DNA of 64,000 bases from a virus: positions 32,001 to 96,000 of the IMG/VR virus record IMGVR_UViG_3300032249_000542; one strand, given 5' to 3'. Below, in pieces: positions 14,413 through 20,863 of this stretch. Both the position numbers and the translations under genes were made by a program. The notes beneath the pieces were generated by a model that saw nothing but the letters and a program-made list of their open reading frames with translations, was not told where the DNA came from and searched no databases. Within the stretch, counting starts at the first letter, position 1, and each line of letters starts with the position of its first letter.

Positions 14413-15002
14413 CAGGGTATGAAACATTCGCTCTCTTTCATCCACTAAAATTACACTTTACAACAGACTATGATTATTTCAAGTACAATGGAAAGTGTAA
14501 TATTAGTATGGATGCTTTTGAGAGACGAAAAGACAAATATCATTTCTACAAATTGTCACGTAAGTATACCAACGATGAAGAATTAAAGTGGTTTCTTATT
14601 GCCAATCTTGTAGAAAACGATAAACTGTGGGTTGGTGATTTGTTAGGTGATGGTGCGGATCAAAACTTTAAGAGAAGGCAAAAAACCCTACAGTCATTGA
14701 CATACACATTTGAAAATGACTGTAGGAACATCTTTGATGGAGTTGAAAATCCAAACGAATTACTTAGATGCAAGAATGGTGAATATCCACCTCTGCTTAC
14801 AAAGTATTTGCATAGGGATGTACAGATCGAAACAATTTGTATCCTTTCTAGAATACTTGGTCTGACAGATATCTGGAATTCCTGTATTGCTGAAAACATT
14901 CGTTGGCCAACTTTACGAAATACATTTTTAAAATATACACCGTTTCTTCCACAAGATATTACACCTTTTAAGTTAAAACTAAAAATCATAATAAATGAAT
15001 AA
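14409..15002 (+). CDS. gp59: Helicase loader gp59
   Basis: LKLHFT..YDYFKYNGK, F.RRKDKYHFYKLSRK; synteny. Confidence 0.88.
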   Translation: MTGYETFALFHPLKLHFTTDYDYFKYNGKCNISMDAFERRKDKYHFYKLSRKYTNDEELKWFLIANLVENDKLWVGDLLGDGADQNFKRRQKTLQSLTYTFENDCRNIFDGVENPNELLRCKNGEYPPLLTKYLHRDVQIETICILSRILGLTDIWNSCIAENIRWPTLRNTFLKYTPFLPQDITPFKLKLKIIINE

Positions 15003-15864
15003 ACTACTTCTCATTCTTGCGATTGTATCAATGGGTGCGTTAGCTAAAGAATCTGAACCATCCGTTTTACATTTCGATTCTACTGAAAATAGAATGGAGT
15101 ATAATCAAAACATTAGCAAGGTAAGATCACTAGCAAGTCTTACTAAACTAATGACTGCTATGGTTTCTTTGGACTATGACTCAAATATGCTACGTGAGGT
15201 TGAGTTAAAACCATTGGCGAGTACAAAACTCCCAAAACGTAATTATTCACGAAGTGAACTTTTCCATGCAATGTTGATCCGTAGTGACAATGGTGCAGCA
15301 GAAACGATTGCTTCTGATTACCCAGGTGGTCGTGCTAAATTCATTGCAGCTATGAATAACAAGGCAAAGGAAATGGGTTTAACAAGTACGTATTTCAAAG
15401 ACCCTTCTGGTTTGAGTGCAAGTAATGTGAGTACGGCTCTTGATGTTATGGATATGGTTACTGCTGCATCAACCTATGCAATCATTCGTGAAACTAGTGT
15501 AAAGAAACAGGCAATAATTGAAATGCAGTATAAAAAGAAGGTGCGTACCATTGCATTGAAAAATACTAACCATGCACTATTGTTTGAATTTGATAATGTG
15601 ATTACAAGCAAGACTGGATATACTGTACCTGCAGGTTGGTGTGTTGCAATGATGGTAGAACGATTAGAGAAAGCACCAGAACCCGACAAAGATATCATTG
15701 GTCGCCTTATAGATTTCTACAACGGTAAACCAACTATAGAATCAGGTAAAGGTGTTATTCATCGCCACGTAATTGTGGTAATGGGTGCTAAAAATCCAAA
15801 GGATCGTATTGACAAAGTGAAGGATATCATGTACAATGAGATATTGGATAACGAACTACCATGA
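14995..15864 (+). CDS. Peptidase S11 D-Ala-D-Ala carboxy/endopeptidase (PbpG/DacA-like)
   Basis: Signal peptide; SxxK (ASLTKLM), SxN (SDN), KTG (SKTGY). Confidence 0.88.
   Translation: MNKLLLILAIVSMGALAKESEPSVLHFDSTENRMEYNQNISKVRSLASLTKLMTAMVSLDYDSNMLREVELKPLASTKLPKRNYSRSELFHAMLIRSDNGAAETIASDYPGGRAKFIAAMNNKAKEMGLTSTYFKDPSGLSASNVSTALDVMDMVTAASTYAIIRETSVKKQAIIEMQYKKKVRTIALKNTNHALLFEFDNVITSKTGYTVPAGWCVAMMVERLEKAPEPDKDIIGRLIDFYNGKPTIESGKGVIHRHVIVVMGAKNPKDRIDKVKDIMYNEILDNELP
15809..15837 (+). promoter_or_regulatory. Sigma70-type promoter upstream of gene 32
   Basis: TTGACA 15809-15814; 17 bp spacer; TACAAT 15832-15837. Confidence 0.55.
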
Positions 15865-16892: not shown

Positions 16893-19139
16893 CTAATTAG
16901 AACCACGGGCTACTCTGCGTAGTCCTTCCTCAGTAGCTATTAAGTCATAATTATATACAGTATCACTAATAACCCTATCTCCACTATTTCCATTCTTTTG
17001 TGACGATTTTGTAGAAGCGTCTGCTAACTGGAATAAAGAAGTTGATAGGTCACCGAACATATCACCAAACATAGAAAGGATCAATTCTGTTTCAGACATC
17101 TTTTCATACTTGTTTAATCCAGGTTGATTTTTTGGTGTTGTATTTTCTTGACTAGGAGCACTTTTTGAATTGCTAGCAAGTTGTTGTGAGGATCCCACTT
17201 TCTTTCCACCTTCTCCAACTCCAGAAGGCTCAGCACCATATGCAGTTTCCCATGATGCAAATTTCATAGCTCCAGGATTATTCATTCTATTAGGTAATGA
17301 CCCTGGTTTGAAGAATCCTTCTTGTCTAGCTTGTTCATTCAACAACGCAACTTTCTGTGCTTCCGATAAATCACTAAATTTAGTTGATGCGATTGAAACT
17401 CCTATAGCTTTTTCAAGTCCTTTTCCATAATTTTCAGTTGCATCAGGTGCCCAAGATTTAAGAGCTTCTGCAATAGTCTTTTTTGAATAAAATGGTTTTT
17501 CCCAAAGAGCTCTTTGAGCTTTAAACCCAGCTTCAGCTGATGGAAATTTAGCAAATTGATCCGAACCTTTTCCTTTTCCATCATCACTTGAGGTCAATTC
17601 CGAAACCGTAGATTTACTTGATTCAAAATTATCTGCATAGACTTTTTTGAAATCAAATCTTTCTAGATTTTTCATTTCTTTTTGTGGATCCAACATACGT
17701 AAAACTCTTTCATCCCGACTCATCAAATCTCTAATTCTACCTATAGTTAAACCTTCATATTTTCCGTCTTTTATGTTTTTTTCTATTTCTGCAGGAGTTC
17801 CCTCTCCTCTTAGAGAAGCATATTCTATCCACCACCTTCTGGTGTCAGGAAGATTTAAATTTAATGGAGCATCATCTCCTCTCTCTGTATTTAATTGAAT
17901 AATTCCCGCACCTTTTTCGATCTGAGATTCTAGTTGCTTTATTGCTCCTTCTTTTCCTTCATATTTTTTTTCATATCTTTTTGCTTCATCCTTGTCCCTA
18001 GATGTGGTTAACCCCGCATATGCTTTTGCAGCACCTGCACCTAAAGCTGCTCCAAGTAATGATCCTACTCCTGCTATCGGTGATCCAATAACTGCACCTA
18101 AAGCAGCACCAATCAATACATATATTGTATCTTTATTTTGATCCATCCATAGTCTTGTATATCCCATTATATCTTTACCAACCGCAATCATTACATCACC
18201 TAATGTTTTTGCTGCAGCCAATCCATGTGCTAGAATGGTATTGAAAGTACCTTTAATATTTTTTTCTATAGAACTAGTTGTTTCTTCTAATGATTTGGAC
18301 GCTTTATTTAAGTTTGTAGTGAAAAAAGTTGTATTGAATGTCTCATCTAATTTTCTGGCAAATCCAGTCATAAAAGTTTCACCTTCTTTTATACCAAAAA
18401 ATTCCTTTAAACTTTTGCTAATTCCATCAAATGCATCACCAAATACTGAGTAAAGATCAGTACCAATTTTTTTAAAATTAATACTTTTAGCTAAACTATA
18501 AATAACATATCCTCCAGCTATTAATCCTATTATTCCTGGTAAACCAAAACCAGTCATTGCAGTTAATCCACTTAAAAATGCACCACCAATACTGCCAATA
18601 GTTCCAATTAGTCCAGAAATTATAGCTCCACCAAGTCCAAGAACTCCTCCCCCAATTGATCCTAACGTATCTGTAATTCCACCAAACATTCCAGATTTTG
18701 CTGCTGGACCACTAGTTGATGGAGCTATAGATGGATTAGGTTCTGGTGTTAAAGACTTACCATAATTTTCTCGGGTCTTTGGTTTTAGTCCTTGTTTCTT
18801 TGCCATCATCTGAATATTCTGCCTCATGATATTCATGTCTTTTGCAATAATAGGTAAGAACATAGAATTCCTAGCCATTATTCTAGAACTTGCAGCTTGT
18901 GCTGTAGCAGACTTAGATTGTATTGAAGGACCTTTTGGGCCAGCATATTTGTAAGATTTTCCAAATTGCTTTTCTAAAATAGCTCCTAATATTCCAGATT
19001 TAGGAAGCATATTTCTTACGTCACGTTTTTCTTTTTGCGACTCAGAAATTGCTGTACCTAAGCTGGATATTGCTCCTTTACCGGAGTTCAATTCTTGACG
19101 AAATATAGTTTCAAATCTTGATGTTGGTCTTTTAGCCAT
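16893..19139 (-). CDS. Tape-measure-like / baseplate hub protein with C-terminal lysozyme-like domain
   Basis: Long helical protein with Gly-rich hydrophobic segments; FAKFP..EAG, WAP and NNPG motifs; follows the gp26/gp51-like genes. Confidence 0.6.
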   Translation of the reverse strand: MAKRPTSRFETIFRQELNSGKGAISSLGTAISESQKEKRDVRNMLPKSGILGAILEKQFGKSYKYAGPKGPSIQSKSATAQAASSRIMARNSMFLPIIAKDMNIMRQNIQMMAKKQGLKPKTRENYGKSLTPEPNPSIAPSTSGPAAKSGMFGGITDTLGSIGGGVLGLGGAIISGLIGTIGSIGGAFLSGLTAMTGFGLPGIIGLIAGGYVIYSLAKSINFKKIGTDLYSVFGDAFDGISKSLKEFFGIKEGETFMTGFARKLDETFNTTFFTTNLNKASKSLEETTSSIEKNIKGTFNTILAHGLAAAKTLGDVMIAVGKDIMGYTRLWMDQNKDTIYVLIGAALGAVIGSPIAGVGSLLGAALGAGAAKAYAGLTTSRDKDEAKRYEKKYEGKEGAIKQLESQIEKGAGIIQLNTERGDDAPLNLNLPDTRRWWIEYASLRGEGTPAEIEKNIKDGKYEGLTIGRIRDLMSRDERVLRMLDPQKEMKNLERFDFKKVYADNFESSKSTVSELTSSDDGKGKGSDQFAKFPSAEAGFKAQRALWEKPFYSKKTIAEALKSWAPDATENYGKGLEKAIGVSIASTKFSDLSEAQKVALLNEQARQEGFFKPGSLPNRMNNPGAMKFASWETAYGAEPSGVGEGGKKVGSSQQLASNSKSAPSQENTTPKNQPGLNKYEKMSETELILSMFGDMFGDLSTSLFQLADASTKSSQKNGNSGDRVISDTVYNYDLIATEEGLRRVARGSN

Positions 19140-19279
19140 TATCGCTTTCTGTTATTTTTTTCTGCTTCCATTTTTTGTTTTTCTGCTTCTAAGAAATTAA
19201 CCAATAAAGTTAAGTATATTTCTCTTTCCCACGGAATCATATTTTCCAATTCTGTTAAACTATATTTGTGATGCTGCAT
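19139..19279 (-). CDS. gp51: gp51-like baseplate hub / tail assembly protein (frame open upstream to 19342)
   Basis: MQHHKYSLTELENMIPWEREIYLTLL; not in the ORF track; probably reached by a -1 frameshift. Confidence 0.75.
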   Translation of the reverse strand: MQHHKYSLTELENMIPWEREIYLTLLVNFLEAEKQKMEAEKNNRKR

Positions 19280-19329
19280 TAATGAAAAGTTAGTTTGGTA
19301 GTAATTGGAAAGATTATCATGAGAAAGAG

Positions 19330-20067
19330 TTAACCGAAAAAACTTTGTACACCTTCTAAATTTATCTTTTCTTCAAATCCACACTTAGAACAATTAAAAT
19401 CTAATTCTTTTGATATTTTAGGCATAGTATCAAAGAACGCTTTTATTTTTTCCAAGTGTTGCTGTTGCATACTATCAATAAATTCATTTATTTCATCTTT
19501 TTCTAAATCTTTTACATAGTAGATATTATCTTTATCAAAAATATAGTCTATACATTTAATAATAAGTTCAAAAAGAATTTCTTCCTCATTCTTTCCTTGA
19601 AACTTTTGCATAATTTCAAAGCTAGGGTACTTCATAACAATACCTAAATTATCAGTTATCATTATTTTGTTAGTGTGTTCTTCACCAAATTTTGGATTAA
19701 TCTCAAGTACGTTAATATCAAATTTTTGTGAACCTGGGCAAATATTTTGATTTCCTTCAGGGTCAATAGATAAAACATTGTTACATTTATATGTAACATT
19801 TACCACTTCTCCTACTGACCTTGCACGAAGGTTTAGAAATAAAAACTCCAAATCAAATACAGGTAATGCATCAATATCTAATTCTGAAATTAGGCAATTT
19901 TTTAATGCCTGTTTGATTGAACTGATTACTTCCTCTATTTCCGATGACTGTGATGCCATCAAAAGTAATTTTTGTTCCTTTACTAGGAATGGTCTAAATT
20001 TTACTATTTGATTATTCGATGGTAATGTTGCTTCATAAATCGGCACATCAATTTTTGGTAAAGCCAT
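19330..20067 (-). CDS. gp26: gp26-like baseplate hub assembly protein
   Basis: MALPK, FRPFLVKEQK, FDLEFLFLNLRARSVGE, CxxC, LEGVQSFF. Confidence 0.85.
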   Translation of the reverse strand: MALPKIDVPIYEATLPSNNQIVKFRPFLVKEQKLLLMASQSSEIEEVISSIKQALKNCLISELDIDALPVFDLEFLFLNLRARSVGEVVNVTYKCNNVLSIDPEGNQNICPGSQKFDINVLEINPKFGEEHTNKIMITDNLGIVMKYPSFEIMQKFQGKNEEEILFELIIKCIDYIFDKDNIYYVKDLEKDEINEFIDSMQQQHLEKIKAFFDTMPKISKELDFNCSKCGFEEKINLEGVQSFFG

Positions 20068-20083
20068 AAAAACTCCTTAATAA

Positions 20084-20863
20084 TTATCTATTAAATAAAC
20101 CAGTAAACGCATTTTGTACTTCTCCGATAGCTCTTGCTCCCAGAACTCCACCTACAGCTGCAGCGATTTCATTGCCATCATATTTTCCGTCATATATTGT
20201 TCTATATTTGTGATATGAAAACTGAACTGTTAATCTATGTAGGTTATCATCTGACCAAGAAAGTTGTTGTGATGATATACCAATAGGATATGCATCCATT
20301 AATTCTACGGAATATATTTGTTTTACGAAATCATCGTATTGAATTATTTTTAGTTGGGTCATGTATCCAGACCCACTTTCACCTTTTGCAAATCTAAAAT
20401 TATTTGTTTTTGGTGATCTTATTGATTCTAACCAAGCATCAAATAGTTTTCTCTCACTAAATTCATTATTACAAATGAAGGTTAAAGATATATCATTATA
20501 TACCGTTTGATTTGGAACCTTAAATGTTGGACCATATGTTTTTACGTCAGTTGTAGAATAAGACTTTCCTGGAATTTCTGTTGCTTCACATTGTAATGCT
20601 AACCATCTTGTTGCATCATTTCTCCAACTGAAACTTTGATCTGCTCCTCTTTTTTTATCGTCTCCAAATGGTGCGGTAGATTCACCTCGTGCTATTGAAC
20701 CTATAACTTCATTTGGAAAATTCAATAAATTTGAAAGAAAGTTATCCTCAAATCTTTTACTAAGATATAGTGGAATTGGAATTATAACTTGAAAACGACT
20801 AGACTTTGCCGGACCACCTTTTGCCTTAATGTTGGCAAGAAATAGATTTGGTGAAAATGACAT
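20084..20863 (-). CDS. Tail-tube-fold protein (gp54/gp19-like)
   Basis: CEATEIPG, LFDAW, V.L.DAYP...LSW, LTVQFSY. Confidence 0.75.
   Translation of the reverse strand: MSFSPNLFLANIKAKGGPAKSSRFQVIIPIPLYLSKRFEDNFLSNLLNFPNEVIGSIARGESTAPFGDDKKRGADQSFSWRNDATRWLALQCEATEIPGKSYSTTDVKTYGPTFKVPNQTVYNDISLTFICNNEFSERKLFDAWLESIRSPKTNNFRFAKGESGSGYMTQLKIIQYDDFVKQIYSVELMDAYPIGISSQQLSWSDDNLHRLTVQFSYHKYRTIYDGKYDGNEIAAAVGGVLGARAIGEVQNAFTGLFNR

What the first reader, a model, noticed from the sequence alone, without database searches (positions are those of the whole stretch)
19139..19345. Candidate programmed -1 frameshift fusing gp26-like and gp51-like ORFs (lambda G/GT-type arrangement in a T4-like phage)
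Seen on the minus strand: the gp26-like ORF ends AGT TTT TTC GGT TAA, containing the slippery heptamer T-TTT-TTC (19342-19336). The -1 frame is open from there: FFRLTLSHDNLSNYYQTNFSL-MQHHKYSLTELENMIPWERE. The segment LSHDNLSNYYQTNF lies upstream of the first ATG (19279), which has no obvious SD, and it resembles from memory the N-terminus of gp51-like proteins. Gene order is tube-fold gene, ORF1, ORF2, tape-measure-like gene. Known: this order with a -1 shift defines tail assembly chaperones (lambda G/GT), and T4 itself is not a standard example. Inference: these two baseplate-hub genes are a frameshifted chaperone pair.
Basis: partly seen in the sequence, partly recalled or inferred. Interest (0 to 1): 0.8.

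Follow-up and report, generated by a model that had tools for sequence, protein, structure and literature searches.

The report
Frameshift in baseplate-hub chaperone gene
One tail-assembly gene of this uncultured 170-kb T4-like phage very probably makes a 245-residue and a 309-residue protein, because some ribosomes slip back one base on a strictly conserved TTTTTTC; phage T4 makes the same pair from two separate genes (26 and 51).

Summary
The gp26-like gene (19330-20067, minus strand; Pfam T4_baseplate, E 6e-61) ends AGT TTT TTC GGT TAA. The -1 frame is open from the heptamer (19336-19342) to a TAA that overlaps the ATG of the 748-residue tape-measure-like gene.

Comparative evidence supports a programmed -1 frameshift:
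- All 88 relatives outside the Ackermannviridae-like group (gp26 from 98% down to about 27% identical) carry T_TTT_TTY in the same phase.
- In all of them the extension lies in the -1 frame, and homology starts at the heptamer.
- The ATG at 19279 has no Shine-Dalgarno sequence and is replaced by Val or Ile in close relatives.
- The 20 codons before it vary in a coding pattern in the -1 frame.
- The virtual fusion aligns without a break with T4 gp51, which is a gp26 paralogue carrying this extension.
- The complete genome has only one such gene.
- Seven phages with separate genes 26 and 51 lack the T run.

There is no downstream RNA structure. The N-terminal 90 residues resemble tail assembly chaperones (Z 6.9-8.0).

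No paper or annotated record that I could search reports the slip, and a 2016 review names T4 as the exception. This scan has noted the same thing on many other genomes. No product has been detected, so the slip remains an inference.

The parts
19330..20067 (-). gp26-like baseplate-hub assembly chaperone gene, zero frame, 245 aa (the short, 'G-like' product). An AAGGAG Shine-Dalgarno sequence lies 5 nt upstream of its ATG.
   Evidence: Pfam PF12322 T4_baseplate E 6.1e-61, 206 bits against a cut-off of 24.5. phrog_150 'baseplate hub' E 1.3e-66. AF2 model pLDDT 87.8. SD context.
19336..19342 (-). Slippery heptamer T_TTT_TTC in the zero frame (Phe-Phe codons 243-244), one codon before the zero-frame stop.
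   Evidence: The heptamer is TTTTTTC in 81 and TTTTTTT in 7 of 88 relatives, always in the same phase. The codon before it always ends in T although its amino acid varies (S/N/D/A).
19330..19332 (-). Zero-frame stop codon TAA of the short product.
   Evidence: The stop lies exactly one codon after the heptamer in 85 of 88 relatives.
19142..19336 (-). Extension of 65 codons in the -1 frame (RLTLSHDNL...NNRKR), the 'T-like' part. It is homologous to the C-terminal 50 residues of T4 gp51. The predicted long product is 309 aa.
   Evidence: phrog_634 'baseplate hub assembly catalyst' E 5.5e-30, and phrog_150 positions 231-276. BLASTP to T4 gp51 residues 200-249, E 3e-8. Continuous alignment across the junction. 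Coding pattern of variation in the -1 frame.
19277..19279 (-). Internal ATG that gene callers use as the start of a 46-aa 'gp51-like' ORF. It is probably not a real start.
   Evidence: No SD-like motif here or in 30 distinct relatives. The residue is V or I in L004-L009, and the first ATG lies at codon 33/34 in 14 loci.
16893..19139 (-). 748-aa tape-measure/hub-like gene (in the position of T4 gene 29). Its ATG overlaps the stop of the -1 frame extension (TAATG), and there is no SD.
   Evidence: There is no significant Pfam, PHROG or NCBIfam hit and no significant match to T4 gp29. Atlas leads are below 0.9 only (tail tip lysozyme; T4_Tape_measure 0.83). Relatives are annotated as tape measure.
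20084..20863 (-). Tube-fold gene upstream (gp54-like baseplate-tail tube initiator).
   Evidence: phrog_45 'tail tube' E 4e-38. Weak Pfam Phage_TTP_2 and Phage_T4_gp19 hits. The homologous position is annotated gp54 or tube initiator in HTVC008M and PX29.

Best explanation
The gp26-like gene is decoded in two ways.
- Most ribosomes read Phe-Phe-Gly-stop and release a 245-residue hub-assembly chaperone.
- A minority slip back one base while the two tRNA-Phe sit on T_TTT_TTC. They continue in the -1 frame for 65 more codons and release a 309-residue protein.

The long product is the counterpart of T4 gp51 and the short one the counterpart of T4 gp26. The pair is a lambda G/GT-type short and long chaperone encoded just upstream of the tape-measure-like gene.

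Shown: the sequence anatomy, its conservation, the homology of both parts, and the lack of a second gene in the genome.

Inferred: the slip itself, its efficiency, and the roles of the two products in hub and tape-measure assembly. No stimulatory RNA structure is present, so the efficiency is probably low and set by the heptamer alone, as in lambda.

The T4 core lineage (Tevenvirinae, Twarogvirinae, Krischvirus) probably replaced the slip with two paralogous genes.
For: 1. Anatomy.
2. In 81 IMG/VR and named-phage loci the extension homologue is always in the -1 frame, and the tblastn alignment starts at the FF of the heptamer. The wider set gives 88 of 88 with T_TTT_TTY. It spans Kyanoviridae, Pelagibacter, Caulobacter, Sinorhizobium, Ochrobactrum, Stenotrophomonas, Vibrio and Aeromonas phages.
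3. The third base of the preceding codon is invariant T while its amino acid varies. The second Phe is TTC in 61 of 69 junctions although 77% of Phe codons in these genes are TTT.
4. The pre-ATG segment evolves as coding sequence in the -1 frame. The ATG is not conserved and has no SD. In 65 of 88 loci the -1 frame has no start codon upstream of the site.
5. T4 gp51 carries PF12322 over residues 1-201 (E 4e-52) plus a tail homologous to the extension. Virtual fusions align with it without a break.
6. The complete 169,777-bp genome has a single PF12322 gene and a single extension.
7. Negative control: seven phages with separate genes 26 and 51 encode the same Phe motif without a T run, for example GAG TTC TTT in T4.
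8. U_UU.Y is the second most shift-prone A-site motif in E. coli (PMC4066793).
9. In the tree, T4-type gp26 and gp51 together form one side of a starred branch (99/96) against all single-gene forms.
Against: - No protein, ribosome-profiling or reporter evidence exists for this or any relative that I could find.
- No downstream stimulatory structure: window MFE -1.9 kcal/mol, z +1.15; no consensus pairs in 27 sequences.
- An upstream SD-like GAAGG cannot be separated from the conserved Gly codon, which T4 gp26 also has.
- TTTTTTY is common in this AT-rich genome, with 45 copies in the window.
- 23 of 88 loci have an ATG or GTG in the short -1 frame opening upstream of the site.
- The tape-measure identity of the next gene is weakly supported.
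- The chaperone-fold match is moderate and was not reproduced with the gp51-type model.
Confidence: 0.87

Rival explanations
1. There are two independent genes, as in all GenBank annotations. gp26 ends at its stop, and a separate 46-residue 'gp51-like' peptide starts at ATG 19279 (or at a non-canonical start upstream).
For: All 16 annotated records that I inspected call a separate small ORF or nothing, and none uses a joined CDS. An ATG is present at codon 20/21 of the extension in 64 of 88 loci.
Against: - The 20 codons upstream of the ATG are conserved as protein and vary in a coding pattern.
- The ATG is V or I in close relatives, so 14 loci would lose half of the conserved segment.
- No SD-like motif occurs in any of 30 distinct contexts, while gp26 itself has AAGGAG.
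- No start codon lies between the -1 frame's upstream stop and the conserved segment in the window.
- T4 gp51 shows that the segment functions fused to a gp26-like domain.
Confidence: 0.06
2. The long product arises by transcriptional slippage. RNA polymerase adds one U in the U6 run, so some mRNAs carry the fused frame and the ribosome does not slip.
For: The site is a homopolymer run, and an extra U would give the same 309-residue protein. Sequence alone cannot fully separate the two routes.
Against: - From my own knowledge, productive bacterial transcriptional slippage usually needs runs of about 8-9 or more. Here the run is 6 (7 in 7 of 88 loci) and never longer.
- The run always sits in the X_XXY_YYZ phase.
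- The Ackermannviridae-like relatives keep only the in-phase tetramer T_TTC, a run of four T. That is a recognised ribosomal shift motif (PMC4066793) but is too short for polymerase slippage.
Confidence: 0.05
3. The split is an artefact or decay. The gene is really a single 309-residue ORF, and a homopolymer sequencing error or a recent frameshift mutation split it.
For: Rare single-ORF forms of 279-299 residues exist in metagenome assemblies.
Against: The same split, with the stop one codon after the run, appears in 85 of 88 independent loci. These include finished genomes of cultured phages sequenced on different platforms. The fused forms are singleton clusters with heterogeneous junctions, as expected of errors or sporadic indels.
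Confidence: 0.02

Closest known systems
Lambda gpG/gpGT and the conserved -1 frameshift of tail assembly chaperone genes in long-tailed phages (Levin et al. 1993; Xu, Hendrix and Duda 2004; as summarised in PMC5009743)
   Same: - A short product and a C-terminally extended product come from one gene by a -1 slip on an X_XXY_YYZ heptamer near the 3' end.
- The gene lies between a tube-type gene and the tape-measure-type gene.
- No stimulatory structure is needed.
- By analogy with T4 gp51 (PMC3004832), the products are assembly factors that are absent from the virion.
- The N-terminal 90 residues match solved chaperones: HK97 2ob9 Z 6.9, YqbN 3klu Z 7.3.
   Different: - There is no detectable sequence similarity to gpG or gpT.
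- The shared part is 245 residues with extra Cys-rich beta domains, against about 140.
- The heptamer is T_TTT_TTC instead of G_GGA_AAG.
- The zero-frame stop follows after a single codon.
- The T4 counterparts act in baseplate-hub assembly.
- The review states that this frameshift is conserved 'except T4'.
Phage T4 gp26 (208 aa) and gp51 (249 aa), hub assembly chaperones (Leiman et al. 2010, PMC3004832)
   Same: Both T4 proteins and the window's gene carry PF12322. The T4 gp51 tail (residues 200-249) is homologous to the window's -1 frame extension. The short and long forms correspond one to one.
   Different: - T4 encodes the two forms as divergently transcribed paralogues about 20% identical, with no T run.
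- The window's complete genome has one gene and must recode to make the long form.
- T4-type gp26 keeps 3-4 residues of the extension (FF-ELL, FF-KLI) before its stop.
E. coli dnaX tau/gamma -1 frameshift (as cited in PMC4066793)
   Same: A bacterial-type -1 slip on a homopolymeric heptamer sets a fixed ratio of two products from one gene.
   Different: From my own knowledge, dnaX uses A_AAA_AAG with an upstream SD and a downstream hairpin, and its shifted product is the shorter one. Here no structure is present and the shifted product is longer.

Membership tests
G/GT-type tail assembly chaperone frameshift (lambda-like) | Two overlapping reading frames lie between a tube-type gene and the tape measure gene. 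| tested here: met
   The order on the minus strand is gp54-like tube-fold gene, gp26-like ORF, -1 extension, then the 748-aa gene. Caveat: the tape-measure identity of the 748-aa gene rests on position, size, Gly-rich hydrophobic stretches and relatives' annotation. Sequence evidence is weak.
G/GT-type tail assembly chaperone frameshift (lambda-like) | [quoted passage not shown] | tested here: met
   T_TTT_TTC at 19336-19342, one codon before the stop. The -1 frame is open for 67 codons.
G/GT-type tail assembly chaperone frameshift (lambda-like) | Site, phase and frame relation are conserved among divergent relatives. | tested here: met
   88 of 88 loci have the heptamer, and the extension is in the -1 frame in all of them. 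Controls with two genes lack the run.
G/GT-type tail assembly chaperone frameshift (lambda-like) | The downstream frame has no start of its own and is made only as a fusion. | tested here: met
   The ATG is not conserved, there is no SD, and the pre-ATG codons are under coding constraint. This is comparative evidence only.
G/GT-type tail assembly chaperone frameshift (lambda-like) | The shared part has the tail assembly chaperone fold. | tested here: inconclusive
   VIA-align on the window's model, residues 1-90, gave 3fgx Z 8.0, YqbN 3klu Z 7.3, HK97 chaperone 2ob9 Z 6.9 and 5ir0 Z 6.0, with the next hit at 4.5. Foldseek gave nothing at E <= 0.001. The gp51-type model's list was filled by its C-terminal hairpin.
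G/GT-type tail assembly chaperone frameshift (lambda-like) | A long product is made at a low fixed ratio and is required for tail assembly. The short part binds the tape measure and the extension binds the tube protein. | not testable with these tools
   This needs proteomics, reporters and genetics. The literature says only that T4 gp51 is essential, of unknown function and absent from the particle (PMC3004832).
T4 gp26/gp51 hub assembly chaperone family (Pfam PF12322) | A PF12322 domain above the curated cut-off. | tested here: met
   206 bits against a cut-off of 24.5, covering residues 9-244.
T4 gp26/gp51 hub assembly chaperone family (Pfam PF12322) | The gp51-specific C-terminal tail. | tested here: met
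   It is present, but in the -1 frame: phrog_634 E 5.5e-30 and T4 gp51 residues 200-249 at E 3e-8. Relatives of the extension and T4-type gp51 proteins both carry the precomputed family PF28602.1, which is absent from the local Pfam copy.
T4 gp26/gp51 hub assembly chaperone family (Pfam PF12322) | Two separate paralogous genes, as in T4. | tested here: not met
   There is one PF12322 match and one extension match in the complete 169,777-bp genome.

The most novel reading that the evidence does not exclude
The frameshift may do more than set a ratio of short to long chaperone. In this clade the tape-measure-like gene has no Shine-Dalgarno sequence. Its ATG overlaps or lies 2-9 nt after the stop of the -1 frame extension. 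Tape-measure synthesis could therefore be started mainly by ribosomes that have just finished the frameshifted product. That would tie the copy numbers of the long chaperone and its client together. Relatives with a gap of 15-21 nt instead carry a strong SD.
Probability: 0.15. Interest if true: 0.8.

Novelty: new member of a known kind. Interest (0 to 1): 0.66.

Why it matters
A standard review states that the tail-chaperone frameshift is conserved in long-tailed phages 'except T4' (PMC5009743).

- **The gap closes.** Most T4-like phages, including the abundant marine cyanophages and pelagiphages, appear to use the frameshift. T4 itself is a derived case that replaced recoding with two paralogous genes.
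- **gp51 gets a working model.** gp51 is an essential T4 protein of unknown function (PMC3004832). It can now be treated as the long, GT-like form of the gp26 chaperone.
- **Annotation needs correcting.** Hundreds of genome records call a spurious peptide of 40-60 residues, or nothing, where a joined CDS belongs.
- **It is testable.** Cultured relatives allow a direct test of the slip.
- **It is a natural case study.** The two arrangements allow a comparison of recoding against gene duplication as ways to make two forms of one protein.

Tried and rejected
- **Downstream stimulatory RNA structure.** None was found. The window's 81 nt fold at -1.9 kcal/mol (z +1.15), and RNAalifold on 27 relatives gives 0 pairs.
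- **Upstream SD-like stimulator (GAAGG, 9 nt upstream).** It cannot be separated from the conserved Gly residue, which is also present in T4-type gp26 where nothing shifts.
- **Near-identical named phage.** None was found by megablast.
- **NCBIfam.** No hits for any of the four proteins.
- **Tape-measure identity of the 748-aa protein.** No Pfam or PHROG family, BLASTP to T4 gp29 gives E 0.63, and Atlas scores are below 0.9.
- **Foldseek against PDB with the gp26 model.** Nothing at E <= 0.001.
- **VIA search with the gp51-type model.** The list was filled by generic helical hairpins matching residues 205-250, so it did not retest the chaperone fold.
- **PF28602.** It could not be looked up because it is not in the local Pfam copy.
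- **Literature.** Nine full-text searches found no report of a gp26/gp51 frameshift or of their paralogy. Subscription journals, including Xu et al. 2004, are not in the library.
Full report
**1. What is there**

On the minus strand a 245-codon ORF (19330..20067) ends GGT GTA CAA AGT TTT TTC GGT TAA.
- Its product matches Pfam PF12322 T4_baseplate over its whole length (E 6.1e-61) and PHROG 150 'baseplate hub'.
- T_TTT_TTC occupies 19336-19342 in X_XXY_YYZ phase.
- Read from the heptamer, the -1 frame is open for 67 codons (P0001: FFRLTLSHDNLSNYYQTNFSLMQHHKYSL...).
- It ends at a TAA that overlaps the ATG of a 748-codon ORF (16893..19139).
- Upstream of the heptamer the -1 frame is open for only 10 codons and holds no ATG, GTG or TTG.

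The genes around it are T4-like:
- gp4-like head completion, gp2-like DNA end protector and a gp54-like tube-fold protein lie upstream.
- A gp48-like tube cap lies on the other strand.
- gp59-like and gp32-like genes lie nearby.

The window belongs to a complete 169,777-bp IMG/VR virus record with terminal repeats. The closest named phages are Synechococcus phage S-CREM1 and Methylophilales phage Melnitz, at about 40% protein identity.

**2. The extension is a real coding segment, read in the -1 frame**

P0001 matches PHROG 634 'baseplate hub assembly catalyst' (gp51) at E 5.5e-30 over residues 2-66. It also matches the C-terminal positions 231-276 of the gp26 PHROG 150.

tblastn finds the extension in 575 phage records. 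In 537 of them the match covers at least 80% of the query and typically starts at residue 1, lying under the annotated end of gp26 and whatever follows it.

In 81 loci from IMG/VR and two named phages (gp26 46-98% identical), the extension is always in the -1 frame relative to gp26, and the alignment begins at the FF of the heptamer.

Across 69 non-redundant junctions, the 20 codons between the heptamer and the window's ATG show nucleotide entropies of 0.89, 0.61 and 1.24 at -1-frame codon positions 1, 2 and 3. That is the pattern of a translated sequence.

**3. The extension cannot be started on its own**
- The ATG at 19279 is Val or Ile in the closest diverged relatives (L004-L009).
- In 14 loci the first ATG lies at codon 33 or 34, inside the most conserved motif.
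- None of 30 distinct upstream contexts has an SD-like 4-mer, while gp26 itself has AAGGAG five bases before its ATG.

**4. The slip site is under selection at the nucleotide level**

The heptamer is TTTTTTC in 81 and TTTTTTT in 7 of 88 loci. These loci span cyanophages, Pelagibacter, Methylophilales, Caulobacter, Sinorhizobium, Ochrobactrum, Stenotrophomonas, KVP40-like Vibrio and Aeromonas phages.
- The residue before the two Phe varies (Ser, Asn, Asp, Ala), but its codon always ends in T.
- The first Phe is always TTT.
- The second Phe is TTC in 61 of 69 junctions, although 77% of the other Phe codons in these genes are TTT.
- The zero-frame stop follows after exactly one variable codon in 85 of 88 loci.

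The heptamer alone would not be remarkable. The window has 45 TTTTTTY, which is half the number in shuffles.

In E. coli, U_UU.Y ranks second among shift-prone A-site motifs (PMC4066793).

**5. T4 supplies the natural fused form**

In T4, genes 26 and 51 are divergently transcribed. The facts about the two proteins are:
- T4 gp51 (249 aa) carries PF12322 over residues 1-201 (E 3.9e-52) and matches PHROG 150 end to end.
- It is about 20% identical to gp26.
- Its residues 200-249 align with P0001 residues 2-56 (E 3e-8).

Virtual -1 fusions from 18 phages align with T4-type gp51 proteins without a gap at the junction (...F|KLLVNPDEIF.FY.IN... against ...FF|RLTLSHDNLSNYYQTN...). T4-type gp26 stops 3-4 residues into the extension (FF-ELL, FF-KLI).

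So T4 gp26 is the short form and gp51 the long form. I reached this reading before consulting earlier notes.

The window's complete genome has one PF12322 gene and one extension. The long form can therefore only arise by recoding.

**6. Negative control and evolution**

Seven phages with separate genes 26 and 51 were checked: T4, CF1, KMI13, ABTNLsp5, Aba3014, SSG23 and Acj9. They encode the equivalent Phe motif as TTC TTT, TTT GTT, TTC CTT or TTT ATT, and none has a T run.

A maximum-likelihood tree of the shared domain (41 rows) places T4-type gp26 and gp51 together on one side of a starred branch (99/96). All single-gene forms lie on the other side, including the Straboviridae Aeromonas phages.

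The root is not inferred. The wide spread of the single-gene form nevertheless makes the frameshift the likely ancestral state, and the T4 pair a later duplication. The 'KLL'-type tail of T4 gp26 suggests that the frames were fused before the copy was truncated. This last step is inference.

**7. Stimulators**

No downstream structure exists. The window's MFE is -1.9 kcal/mol (z +1.15), and 27 relatives give no consensus pairs.

A GAAGG lies 9 nt upstream and looks SD-like. It encodes a Gly that is also conserved in T4 gp26, so its role cannot be judged.

A low, heptamer-only efficiency would fit lambda G/GT, for which a 30:1 ratio is reported (PMC5009743).

**8. Fold**

The AF2 model of the window's gp26 is confident (pLDDT 87.8). 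Foldseek finds nothing at E <= 0.001.

VIA-align against 48,161 chains puts four small proteins on top for residues 1-90:
- 3fgx, Z 8.0
- B. subtilis YqbN (3klu), Z 7.3
- the HK97 tail assembly chaperone (2ob9), Z 6.9
- 5ir0, Z 6.0

The next hit has Z 4.5. From my own knowledge, YqbN belongs to the XkdN-like chaperone family.

This is suggestive but not decisive. The gp51-type model (pLDDT 91.2) shows the extension as a helical hairpin (helices 208-221, 226-230 and 234-249). Its search list was filled by generic hairpins.

**9. Rivals**
- Independent initiation at the ATG is contradicted by sections 2 and 3.
- Transcriptional slippage would give the same protein. However, the run is only 6-7 T and always in ribosomal phase, and Ackermannviridae-like relatives keep just the in-phase tetramer T_TTC.
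- Sequencing error is excluded by the recurrence in finished genomes.
- Rare fused ORFs of 279-299 residues are singleton clusters with heterogeneous junctions.

**10. What is known**

Leiman et al. 2010 list gp26 and gp51 as hub assembly chaperones. They call gp51 essential, of unknown function and absent from the particle. Atkins et al. 2016 state that G-T frameshifting is conserved in long-tailed phages 'except T4'.

None of the 16 annotated records that I inspected joins the two frames. Nine full-text searches found no report.

Earlier notes of this scan describe the same arrangement on many other genomes, so this is a recurring finding of the scan rather than one unique to this window.

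**Verdict**

It is a lambda-type chaperone frameshift in a family where it has not been described. The comparative evidence is strong, but no product has been detected.

Noticed in passing
L093 2280-2304, L094 2196-2220, L096 2205-2229, L097 2049-2073: Ackermannviridae-like phages (Klebsiella Menlow, Erwinia Bue1, Vibrio VPALA and D533) lack the heptamer. They keep an in-phase tetramer T_TTC ((A/C)TT TTC NNN TAA), and the homologous extension is again in the -1 frame. This suggests a single-tRNA A-site slip variant of the same recoding.
   Followed up: partly
window 16893-19141 (minus strand): The ATG of the 748-aa tape-measure-like gene overlaps the stop of the -1 extension (TAATG), and no SD precedes it. 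In 31 of 50 distinct relatives the next large gene starts 2-9 nt after that stop without an SD-like motif. Relatives with a gap of 15-21 nt have a strong SD. Translation of this gene may be coupled to frameshifted ribosomes.
   Followed up: partly
whole window, both strands: TTTTTTY occurs 45 times against 92 +/- 13 in dinucleotide-preserving shuffles, and every one of 100 shuffles has at least 45. Slippery T runs are generally avoided in this AT-rich genome (33-39% GC).
   Followed up: no
L083 3803-3835 (T4 gene 26 end) and L098-L103: T4-type gp26 proteins end 3-4 residues into the sequence that corresponds to the gp51 extension (FF-ELL, FF-KLI, FF-KVM). This looks like truncated copies of an already fused gene.
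   Followed up: partly
proteins P0147, P0149, P0151, P0161, P0162, P0168: Metagenome assemblies contain rare single-ORF proteins of 279-299 aa that carry both PF12322 and the extension. All are singleton clusters with different junction sequences. They are either sporadic in-frame fusions or homopolymer assembly errors.
   Followed up: partly
window 14995-15864 (+): A 289-aa protein with a signal-peptide-like N-terminus matches Peptidase_S11, a D-Ala-D-Ala carboxypeptidase (E 1.2e-33). It sits between the gp59-like and gp32-like replication genes, which is an unusual cargo gene for that position.
   Followed up: no
proteins P0002-P0093 and P0146-P0174: The precomputed tables list a Pfam family PF28602.1 on the C-terminal tail of T4-type gp51 proteins and on relatives of the window's extension. 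It is absent from the local Pfam copy, so its name and curators' description could not be read.
   Followed up: no
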